A stretch of 5,322 bases of DNA from a virus (taxonomy: Duplodnaviria > Heunggongvirae > Uroviricota > Caudoviricetes): IMG/VR virus record IMGVR_UViG_2703718820_000005, positions 1 through 5,322 of that record, one strand, 5' to 3'. Made by a program: the position numbers and the translations under genes. Below are positions 2,242 through 2,802 of the stretch, piece after piece (within the stretch, counting starts at the first letter, position 1; each line of letters opens with the position of its first letter). The notes under the pieces were generated by a model. The model was given only the letters and a program-made list of their open reading frames with translations. It was not told the DNA's origin and did no database searches.

Positions 2242-2802
2242 GTGATGAACCATGAAGAAATGAATCAGCGCTTCAGTCGTCTGGAAAATGAAATTGCTGA
2301 ACTGAATAAAAAACTGTCGGCGCTGATGCCTTCTGAAGATGAAAAAAAACGCCGCGATGAGCAGTTTGCTGCGTTTGACGATTATTGTCGGAAAGTGATG
2401 AGCAGAAATCTCGCAGAGTGTTTCAGTATTCATAATGATAATTTCAGTGAGCTGGAATGGGAGTGTAACCGGCCATCCTTTGTTGTATCCGGTGATGCTG
2501 GGAAAATAACCATCTCAGAAAATGGGAAAGTAACACCTCCATCGCACCAGCACAGTGAGGAGTTCATTGAATTTGCCATTGATTACCTGAAGAACAATAA
2601 AAAGCAGGGGCTGATGAAGCGCGTTGGCCGTTGCATGGGATATCTTCAGGTAGCCGCTGAGATTGAAGCGCTGGCCAGTGGTGCTGATAAGGATGCAATT
2701 GTGCGGGAGGCTCTTCTTCGTGATTTTAATACTCCACCCTTTAAAAAAGTGCCGGCTTACTGGCTTCATCCGGGGCTGACTTATCTTAAAGTGCGTATTT
2801 AG
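2242..2802 (+). CDS. Hypothetical soluble protein, ~185 aa, inserted between holin and endolysin; N-terminal coiled-coil-like segment; function unknown
   Basis: Uninterrupted 561-bp ORF. GGGGAGAG (2231-2238) sits 6 nt before ATG 2245 (GTG 2242 is also possible), and the start abuts the S stop at 2239-2241, indicating translational coupling. The gene looks A+T-richer than its neighbours by eye (about 41% GC in the first 100 nt, counted by hand). No transmembrane segment and no catalytic motif recognised. Confidence 0.7.
   Translation: MMNHEEMNQRFSRLENEIAELNKKLSALMPSEDEKKRRDEQFAAFDDYCRKVMSRNLAECFSIHNDNFSELEWECNRPSFVVSGDAGKITISENGKVTPPSHQHSEEFIEFAIDYLKNNKKQGLMKRVGRCMGYLQVAAEIEALASGADKDAIVREALLRDFNTPPFKKVPAYWLHPGLTYLKVRI

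What the first reader, a model, noticed from the sequence alone, without database searches (positions are those of the whole stretch)
2242..2802. Uncharacterised 186-aa gene inserted between pinholin S and SAR endolysin R
In phage 21 and 933W-type cassettes that I know, S is followed directly by R. Here a 561-bp ORF is wedged between them: its start abuts the S stop behind a good Shine-Dalgarno sequence, so it is co-translated with the holin late in infection. It looks more A+T-rich than S, R and Rz (hand count, not computed across the gene), which suggests separate acquisition. The protein has a charged coiled-coil-like N-terminus (RLENEIAELNKKLSALMPSEDEKKRRDEQ) and a C-terminal domain with four Cys and no motif I can place. 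A soluble late protein made with the lysis proteins could be a lysis-timing regulator, an anti-defence factor or an abortive-infection/exclusion factor; these are hypotheses only.
Basis: partly seen in the sequence, partly recalled or inferred. Interest (0 to 1): 0.7.

Follow-up and report, generated by a model that had tools for sequence, protein, structure and literature searches.

The report
Truncated YdfR-family gene after holin
The ORF is a real prophage gene of unknown function that is already in the databases: it is the coiled-coil plus C-terminal half of the modular YdfR-type proteins that many E. coli lambdoid prophages (including K-12 Qin) carry between holin and endolysin, so it is ordinary for this phage group.

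Summary
The ORF exists, but its conserved start is ATG 2245 (185 aa), not GTG 2242. It is under purifying selection (dN/dS 0.25-0.39). It is more A+T-rich than its neighbours: 45% GC against about 55% for S, R and Rz. It is not a one-off insertion. The position right after a class II holin is a variable slot in E. coli/Shigella lambdoid prophages, and K-12 Qin has essQ-ydfR-rrrQ there. The slot holds a mosaic family built from three modules: a DUF1327 N-domain, a coiled-coil hairpin and a C-domain with no recognisable relatives. The window's gene has only the last two modules. Its 3' part (443 bp of the ORF) is 99.8% identical to an intact 296-aa YdfR-family gene. Its 5' end matches other forms that lack the N-domain. 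Copies 97-99.7% identical are already in public E. coli genomes, named 'hypothetical protein' (PHROG 1085). No Pfam, NCBIfam, PADLOC, PDB or BFVD match assigns a function. Only 42 cluster representatives exist among 1.84 billion proteins; those I could trace to an organism are from Escherichia, Shigella or Salmonella. The three Salmonella-type relatives whose lysis genes are visible lie upstream of the holin, which argues against a dedicated lysis role. The most likely reading is a dispensable cytoplasmic accessory protein made late in infection. Interest is low to moderate.

The parts
2245..2802 (+). The gene: 185 codons plus stop. It encodes a soluble protein of 21.3 kDa, pI 6.2. GTG 2242 is the mechanical ORF start but is not conserved.
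   Evidence: dN/dS 0.25-0.39
2231..2238 (+). Shine-Dalgarno sequence GGGGAGAG embedded in the last codons of S. It serves whichever gene follows S: this ORF here, R in Min27/933W-type cassettes.
2245..2430 (+). Module B (aa 1-62): an acidic antiparallel helical hairpin or coiled coil. It is homologous to the linker that follows the DUF1327 domain in the long YdfR-family proteins.
   Evidence: alignments; AlphaFold2 helices 3-27 and 31-61; weak helical-hairpin Pfam hits only
2418..2472 (+). Low-confidence acidic linker, about aa 58-76. The 209-221-aa relatives carry about 27 extra residues here.
   Evidence: pLDDT <50 for residues 58-69; alignment; pI 4.25
2473..2799 (+). Module C (aa 77-185): a basic alpha/beta domain (pI 9.1). 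Three short strands are followed by helices and a Pro-rich tail. Conserved motif: GRCMGxLQvAAEIE ... PPFK..P..W..PG..YLK.R. No Pfam, PDB or BFVD relative.
2360..2360 (+). Approximate intragenic recombination breakpoint. Downstream of it, the DNA is 99.8% identical to the 3' part of an intact 296-aa DUF1327-containing gene (E. coli MS 196-1). Upstream, the start region aligned (to 2300) is identical to the forms without the N-domain in Stx2_499 and 12E129, and aa 1-63 are 93.7% identical to the Stx2_499 protein.
2026..2241 (+). S: a phage-21-type class II holin (PF04971), 71 aa, with Met1 and Met4 as possible dual starts.
2803..2838 (+). A 36-nt A/U-rich spacer before R with no Shine-Dalgarno sequence. 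No terminator and no flanking direct repeats.
2839..3372 (+). R: a lysozyme (PF00959) with a SAR-like N-terminus. Its first ~10 codons differ from R of Min27, which marks the downstream module boundary.

Best explanation
Identity (shown): the ORF is a real, selected gene of the modular prophage family catalogued as PHROG 1085. Long members of that family are named 'YdfR family' or 'DUF1327 domain-containing' proteins. The complete architecture is a DUF1327 N-domain, then a coiled-coil hairpin, then a C-domain with no recognisable relatives. This architecture is conserved between E. coli proteins and relatives only 26-33% identical; those that could be traced are from Salmonella. The window's copy belongs to an established lineage that lacks the N-domain. 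It is itself a recombinant: a 5' end of the type without the N-domain joined to the 3' two-thirds of a 296-aa-type gene.

How it got here (inferred from junctions): by homologous exchange of cassette modules at the conserved S 3' end and R 5' end. There is no sign of transposition.

Expression (inferred from sequence): it is made from the Q-dependent late transcript. Ribosomes use the Shine-Dalgarno sequence embedded in the end of S, which serves R in 933W-type cassettes. R is left with a leader that has no Shine-Dalgarno sequence.

Function (inferred, low certainty): a dispensable cytoplasmic accessory protein made late in infection. It probably oligomerises through the helical hairpin and binds a host or phage partner, possibly nucleic acid, through the basic C-domain. 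My preferred specific reading, at roughly one chance in three, is that the family forms adaptors acting on host RNA metabolism. In long forms DUF1327 would dock on RNase E and the C-domain would bind the target. This form would then bind the target without recruiting RNase E. I do not think it is a component of the lysis machinery.
For: Real gene: dN/dS 0.25-0.39. Five 185/186-aa clusters hold about 965 member sequences.

Family membership: phrog_1085, E 1.1e-112, covering profile positions 117-296 of 296. The long relatives carry PF07041 at their N-terminus and align with the target over linker and C-domain.

The three-module architecture is shared with the distant relatives (26-33% identity); P0124 and P0129 among them are Salmonella enterica proteins.

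The lineage without the N-domain is old: 185-221-aa forms are 48-97% identical to one another. In the four loci examined (window, Stx2_499, 12E129 and Shigella flexneri L018) the gene starts within a few nt of the S stop.

Chimera.

The slot is common and variable: K-12 essQ-ydfR-rrrQ; types listed; 101 of 346 phage records with this holin carry DUF1327.

Junctions and shared Shine-Dalgarno sequence. No internal promoter, no flanking terminator and no flanking repeats.

Soluble protein with a basic C-domain. Confident AlphaFold2 model, pLDDT 83.4.

The DUF1327 part of K-12 YdfR (aa 1-72) binds the RNase E catalytic domain, and RNA co-purifies with it (PMC13232886).

Dispensable: Min27/933W-type phages lack it.

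In relatives P0124, P0135 and P0143 the gene lies upstream of the holin; for P0124 and P0135 it lies between Q/HicAB and the holin.
Against: There are no functional data for this protein or its C-domain. The RNase E link rests on a domain this protein lacks, and on one two-hybrid/pull-down study of K-12 YdfR in which overexpression barely changed the transcriptome. The tight coupling to S could equally point to a lysis-related role. The structure model rests on only 26 sequences. It could be searched only as a whole model, so a domain-level structural relative may have been missed. The AFDB library was unavailable. Nucleic-acid binding is inferred only from charge and from a weak, non-significant resemblance to RRE/winged-helix folds.
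Confidence: 0.55

Rival explanations
1. Lysis regulator. A soluble protein made in fixed ratio with the pinholin tunes the time of triggering or the release of the SAR endolysin, working like P1 LydB or the Mu releasin.
For: The start codon lies 3 nt after the S stop and shares S's embedded Shine-Dalgarno sequence. Every context seen has a class II holin and a lysozyme; the two lysozymes I translated, like R here, have SAR-like N-termini. Whatever the protein does, the insertion moves R away from the strong Shine-Dalgarno sequence onto a leader without one. That alone could change the S:R ratio.
Against: The protein has no membrane segment (maximum Kyte-Doolittle 19-residue score 0.75). The position is not conserved: the relatives with visible lysis genes lie upstream of the holin, and in the one of these that also carries the opposite-strand companion gene (P0124 locus) that gene lies in between. 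Many working phages with the same S and R families lack it. The slot gene is swapped among unrelated C-terminal modules. No sequence relative of any known lysis regulator appeared in an exhaustive HMMER search.
Confidence: 0.2
2. Conflict gene. It is an anti-defence, superinfection-exclusion or abortive-infection factor carried as cargo in a hotspot of the late operon.
For: Narrow distribution: 42 representatives among 1.84 billion proteins. Strong mosaicism, presence/absence polymorphism and lower GC. Relatives sit next to HicAB toxin-antitoxin genes in the Q-to-holin cargo region. A conserved companion gene on the opposite strand (phrog_1853) accompanies many C-domain genes.
Against: No PADLOC match for the protein, its long relatives or the companion. 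No promoter of its own that would allow expression in a lysogen. Late timing suits classical anti-defence proteins poorly. The companion gene is absent from the window.
Confidence: 0.15
3. Functionless remnant. It is a decaying fragment of a longer ydfR-type gene that has lost its N-terminal domain.
For: It lacks the DUF1327 domain of the long forms. It also lacks about 27 residues present in the 209-221-aa relatives. Many shorter fragments of the family exist in databases, and separate PHROGs cover the halves.
Against: dN/dS is well below 1. The reading frame is intact and has a conserved ATG. About 965 sequences fall in five 185/186-aa clusters. Forms without the N-domain are as little as 48% identical yet, in the four loci examined, keep the same start context right after S. 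The AlphaFold2 model is confident in both modules.
Confidence: 0.08

Closest known systems
E. coli K-12 Qin prophage YdfR (b1555, P76160; Pfam DUF1327/PF07041)
   Same: It occupies the same slot, directly after a class II holin (essQ) and before the lysozyme (rrrQ). It belongs to the same modular family through the long forms that join both halves.
   Different: The two proteins are complementary halves. YdfR (103 aa) is the DUF1327 domain plus one helix. The window's protein has no DUF1327 and consists of the coiled-coil hairpin plus the C-domain. The reported binding of YdfR to RNase E maps to aa 1-72, which have no counterpart here.
296-aa 'YdfR family protein' of E. coli (for example cluster P0034, or the intact ORF in strain MS 196-1)
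   Same: The 3' 443 bp of the ORF, the spacer and the start of R (501 bp in all) are 99.8% identical in DNA. The position between S and R is the same.
   Different: The 296-aa protein carries about 115 extra N-terminal residues (DUF1327 plus a beta-rich segment), and the first helix of the hairpin is of a different allele.
Stx2-converting phage 86 orf5 (BAF34037, 268 aa) and Stx2_95 BCI50300 (329 aa)
   Same: The C-domain is 82-92% identical and the slot after S is the same.
   Different: Both have a DUF1327 N-domain. Phage 86 also has the opposite-strand companion orf6 (phrog_1853), which the window lacks.
Relatives without the N-domain: Stx2_12E129 BCI98956 (213 aa), Stx2_499 BCI49448 (161 aa), Shigella flexneri 209-aa form
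   Same: They have the same MNHEEMNQR-type start a few nt after S, and the same hairpin.
   Different: The 213-aa and 209-aa forms have an extra ~27-residue segment before the C-domain. Stx2_499 has an unrelated C-terminal module.
Soluble lysis regulators encoded beside holins, such as phage P1 LydB (recalled from my own knowledge, not tested here)
   Same: A small soluble protein encoded immediately downstream of a holin in the late transcript.
   Different: No sequence relationship to any protein outside the 42-member family was detected. The position is not conserved in distant relatives. No genetic evidence exists.

Membership tests
Pfam DUF1327 / YdfR family in the strict sense (PF07041) | A match to the DUF1327 domain model | tested here: not met
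   No Pfam hit at E<=0.01 and none at E<=1. Long relatives score 116-152 bits.
PHROG 1085 (long modular YdfR-type prophage proteins) | A significant match to the family profile | tested here: met
   E 1.1e-112, 377 bits; residues 2-186 match profile positions 117-296 of 296.
PHROG 1085 (long modular YdfR-type prophage proteins) | The coiled-coil linker module and the C-domain motif GRCMGxLQvAAEIE...PPFK..P..W..PG..YLK.R | tested here: met
   Alignments A1, A2 and A5. Invariant positions across 26 sequences, including the distant relatives at 26-33% identity: L115, G128, L134, Q135, A137, P165, K167, W173, P176, Y180.
PHROG 1085 (long modular YdfR-type prophage proteins) | A location in the late operon next to a class II holin and lysozyme cassette | tested here: met
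   Window; relatives.
Antiholins and lysis regulators (S21-71, lambda S107, T4 RI, P1 LydB, Mu releasin) | A membrane segment or periplasmic holin-binding domain, or sequence homology to a known regulator | tested here: not met
   No hydrophobic segment. No homologues outside the family in 1.84 billion proteins. No lysis-category PHROG hit.
Antiholins and lysis regulators | A mutation alters lysis timing | not testable with these tools
   This needs a deletion in an inducible prophage.
Known anti-phage defence systems (PADLOC-DB v2) | A match to a defence-protein model | tested here: not met
   No hits at E<=0.1 for the protein, two long relatives or the companion gene.
Moron (independently transcribed cargo gene of a prophage) | Base composition unlike the flanks, and presence/absence polymorphism between related phages | tested here: met
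   GC 45.1% against about 54.6% in the flanks. Absent in Min27.
Moron (independently transcribed cargo gene of a prophage) | Its own promoter and terminator flanking the gene | tested here: not met
   No promoter-like site upstream or inside the gene and no terminator after it; the one terminator-like match lies inside the coding sequence. The gene instead uses the Shine-Dalgarno sequence embedded in S.
RRE / PqqD-like winged-helix domains | A significant structural match to the beta3-alpha3 fold | tested here: inconclusive

The most novel reading that the evidence does not exclude
The C-domain is a structurally orphan module found so far only in Escherichia, Shigella and Salmonella lambdoid prophages. 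Together with the RNase E-binding DUF1327 domain, and often with the opposite-strand companion gene phrog_1853, it would form a late-expressed system that retargets or blocks host RNA decay. Alternatively, the system would act in competition between co-resident prophages. In that case the form without the N-domain would pair through the coiled coil with the DUF1327-bearing paralogues of other prophages and act as a decoy.
Probability: 0.12. Interest if true: 0.65.

Novelty: already known. Interest (0 to 1): 0.3.

Why it matters
If the family proved to have a defined role, it would explain a gene present in a sizeable fraction of E. coli. Parts of the ORF-centred query are found in 1196 of 5426 complete genomes, and STEC strains carry up to 15 cassettes of this type (up to 15 places per genome match the S-ORF-R query). 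It would also give a function to the K-12 y-gene ydfR. Separately, the insertion moves the endolysin gene off the strong ribosome-binding site it uses in 933W-type phages. That could affect lysis, and hence Shiga-toxin release, regardless of what the protein does. As it stands, the finding is an ordinary, already-sequenced hypothetical gene. The useful result is its correct placement as one half of a modular family.

Tried and rejected
Searches that gave no functional lead:
- Pfam, NCBIfam and PADLOC scans of the protein: nothing.
- PDB sequence-profile search: best E 0.044, all coiled-coil noise.
- First AlphaFold2 run on an alignment of E. coli sequences only: unusable, pLDDT 52.7.
- AFDB50 was not available.
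- Literature searches found nothing on the gene between S and R. They found only one paper with functional data on YdfR.

Ideas considered and rejected:
- Transposon-like insertion: no flanking direct or inverted repeats.
- Independent moron transcription unit: no promoter or terminator.
- RNA gene on either strand: Rfam and tRNA scans show nothing in 2242-2802.
- Cys-based metal site: the Cys residues are not conserved.

Corrections to my own earlier steps:
- The RefSeq 'pseudogene' annotation of the 296-aa gene in strain MS 196-1 misled me at first. The ORF is intact.
- The count of 684 genomes from the 1001-bp query overstates the 185-aa architecture, because S, R and the shared 3' module alone reach 80% coverage. 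The ORF-centred 661-bp query gives 205 genomes.

Full report
**What the window is.** The window is the late region of a lambdoid (Stx-phage-like) prophage of Escherichia. Its genes in order are:
- the C-terminal part of a NanS-p/YjhS-type sialate esterase (64-1329; SASA + DUF6645)
- DUF1378 (1469-1651)
- DUF826 (1677-1949)
- a phage-21-type class II holin S (2026-2241, PF04971)
- the target ORF
- a lysozyme R with a SAR-like N-terminus (2839-3372, PF00959)
- a 640-bp interval with small ORFs
- Rz (Pfam Phage_lysis; ORF 3931-4482, probable start near 4015) with embedded Rz1 (4235-4420)

No complete E. coli genome matches the whole window at more than about 93% identity. The S-ORF-R segment is 99.0% identical to E. 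coli ST866, and the 661-bp ORF-centred query is 99.7% identical to it. The ORF's protein is 98% identical to that of Escherichia sp. MOD1-EC7003.

**Checking the observation.**
- The ORF at 2242-2802 is present.
- The conserved start is ATG 2245, giving 185 aa. Public homologues are 185 aa and begin MNHEE. MOD1-EC7003 has ATA in place of GTG 2242.
- The Shine-Dalgarno sequence GGGGAGAG (2231-2238) lies inside the last S codons, and the S stop is at 2239-2241.
- The ORF has 45.1% GC (GC3 43.9%). S, R and Rz have 54.6, 54.7 and 54.7% (GC3 69, 61 and 58%).
- In Min27, a 933W-type phage, R starts 4 nt after S.
- dN/dS against three diverged homologues is 0.25-0.39, so this is a selected protein-coding gene.
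- The protein is soluble: 21.3 kDa, no hydrophobic segment.

**What it is.** The protein matches no Pfam, NCBIfam or PADLOC model. It does match PHROG 1085 ('unknown function') at E 1e-112, but only over positions 117-296 of the 296-position profile. Related phages explain this. The gene directly after S is variable, and it is built from modules:
- DUF1327 alone: Stx2_EH2201, 114 aa (DUF1327 by tblastn).
- DUF1327 plus coiled coil: PhiR12_2 and 2H10.
- DUF1327 plus coiled coil plus C-domain: phage 86 orf5 (268 aa), Stx2_95 (329 aa), and the 287/296-aa 'YdfR family' proteins.
- Coiled coil plus C-domain: the window (185 aa) and 12E129 (213 aa).
- Coiled coil plus an unrelated C-terminal module: Stx2_499 and Stx1_499.

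K-12 Qin has the arrangement essQ-ydfR-rrrQ, with ydfR starting 4 nt after essQ. The window's gene therefore has the slot and the family of ydfR but not its defining domain. The two are complementary halves of the long protein.

**The gene is a recombinant.** From about nt 2360 onward the DNA is 99.8% identical to the 3' part of an intact 296-aa gene in E. coli MS 196-1. RefSeq's 'pseudogene' label for that gene is an annotation artefact; the ORF is intact. The 5' end is of the type without the N-domain: the start region aligned (window 2242-2300) is identical to Stx2_499 and 12E129, and aa 1-63 are 93.7% identical to the Stx2_499 protein.

**Junctions.**
- Upstream, all cassettes are alike up to the S stop codon and diverge immediately after it. 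Whichever gene follows S uses the same embedded Shine-Dalgarno sequence.
- Downstream, the first ~10 codons of R differ between Min27 (empty slot) and the six filled-slot cassettes aligned.
- In the window, R is preceded by a 36-nt A/U-rich spacer with no Shine-Dalgarno sequence.
- There are no flanking repeats, no promoter and no terminator.
- This pattern fits exchange of modules by homologous recombination and translation from the late transcript.

**How widespread it is.**
- The ORF-centred 661-bp query is covered at 80% or more in 205 of 5426 complete E. coli genomes. It is matched in part in 1196 genomes, mostly through the shared 3' module.
- Five 185/186-aa clusters hold about 965 sequences, all named 'hypothetical protein'.
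- Among phage records, 346 carry this holin, 101 carry a DUF1327 gene, and only 20 carry any part of the target protein.
- An exhaustive HMMER search of 1.84 billion cluster representatives found only 42 family members.
- Species-level genome representatives gave hits only in Escherichia and Shigella. Four of the ten distant relatives looked up (P0124, P0126, P0127, P0129) are Salmonella enterica proteins; the rest come from unnamed sequencing runs.

**Distant relatives.** These proteins are 26-33% identical to the window's, apart from the shorter P0126 at 40%. The long ones keep the full three-module plan: a DUF1327-like N-domain, a coiled coil, and a C-domain with the motif GRCMGxLQvAAEIE...PPFK..P..W..PG..YLK.R. 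For P0124 and P0135 the gene lies between the Q antiterminator/HicAB genes and the holin. For P0143 it lies two genes upstream of the holin. None of them lies between S and R. Four of these loci (L010, L013, L014, L015), and also phage 86 and 12E129, have a conserved ~104-aa gene on the opposite strand directly downstream (phrog_1853, 37-41% identity between E. coli and the distant relatives). The window lacks it.

**Structure.** With the diverse alignment, AlphaFold2 gives pLDDT 83.4. The model has:
- an antiparallel helical hairpin (residues 3-61)
- a disordered acidic linker
- a basic C-domain (pI 9.1): three short strands, then helices at 101-117, 123-144 and 151-161, a Pro-rich tail and a last helix

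**Function.** Nothing assigns one directly.
- The only experimental data for the family concern K-12 YdfR. Its residues 1-72 (the DUF1327 domain) bind the catalytic N-terminal half of RNase E, and RNA co-purifies with it. Overexpression changed few transcripts (PMC13232886). That domain is absent here.
- My best reading is a dispensable cytoplasmic accessory protein made late in infection. It would oligomerise through the hairpin and bind a partner through the basic C-domain.
- The most specific version (about one chance in three) is that the family forms adaptors acting on host RNA decay, and that this form binds the target without recruiting RNase E.
- A lysis-regulator role (about 0.2) fits the coupling to S. 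Against it are the lack of a membrane segment, the non-conserved position in the distant relatives, the swapping of C-terminal modules, and the absence of the gene from working 933W-type phages.
- A conflict or defence role (about 0.15) fits the mosaicism, the narrow range and the cargo-region neighbours. It has no model match, and the gene has no promoter active in a lysogen.
- A decaying remnant (about 0.08) is contradicted by dN/dS, the conserved start and the confident fold.

**Verdict.** The gene is already sequenced many times and catalogued (PHROG 1085; RefSeq 'hypothetical protein'). The slot it occupies is a known variable position that is filled even in K-12. The new information is its placement as the coiled-coil plus C-domain half of the YdfR-type modular proteins, and the note that it takes over the ribosome-binding site that R uses in 933W-type cassettes. 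Interest is 0.3.

Noticed in passing
window 3463-3495 (+): A strong terminator-like hairpin (15-bp stem followed by a T-run) lies inside the late operon, between the R stop (3372) and Rz. Reading through it would presumably need Q-modified polymerase.
   Followed up: no
window 3373-4014: The R-Rz interval is a second A+T-richer insert (46% GC). It holds small ORFs that look like membrane proteins and match PHROGs of unknown function: 3643-3915 phrog_3246, 3665-3796 phrog_4906, 3450-3662 phrog_6632. Min27/933W-type phages carry ant at this position.
   Followed up: partly
window 2803-2841: R has no Shine-Dalgarno sequence within 20 nt of its ATG. In Min27, R uses the GGAGAG embedded in the end of S. 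Filling the slot therefore changes R's translation signals, a cis effect on lysis that does not depend on the inserted protein.
   Followed up: partly
L002 3107-3421 (-), L004 2157-2471 (-), L013 5807-6124 (-), L015 585-902 (-), L010 2378-2713 (-): A conserved ~104-aa gene on the opposite strand (phrog_1853, unknown function) lies directly downstream of C-domain-bearing ydfR-like genes, both in E. coli phages and in distant relatives (at least one from Salmonella). Identity between the two groups is 37-41%. All 4 phage records that carry it also carry a C-domain gene. It is absent from the window.
   Followed up: partly
L016 3053-3943 (E. coli MS 196-1): RefSeq annotates this 296-aa YdfR-family gene as an incomplete pseudogene, but the ORF is intact. 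436 complete-genome records have a best match at 99% identity or more to the ORF-centred query, and the sampled ones are this same 3' segment (window 2360-2860). The label is probably an artefact of a family model that covers only the N-terminal domain.
   Followed up: yes
window 1335-1407 (-): A weak match, well below threshold, to the EHEC small RNA Esr41 (RF02676; 30.4 bits against a gathering score of 102; E 0.008). It lies just downstream of the esterase gene.
   Followed up: no
window 4554-4721 (+): A 55-aa ORF just after Rz matches phrog_6954, which is labelled 'Rz-like spanin' (E 2e-38). Its role next to the Rz/Rz1 pair is unclear.
   Followed up: no
L012 and L013 (loci of relatives P0135 and P0124; P0124 is from Salmonella enterica): Here the ydfR-like long genes sit in the cargo region between Q and the holin. 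A HicA/HicB toxin-antitoxin pair lies beside them, and in L012 a DUF4406 gene as well.
   Followed up: no
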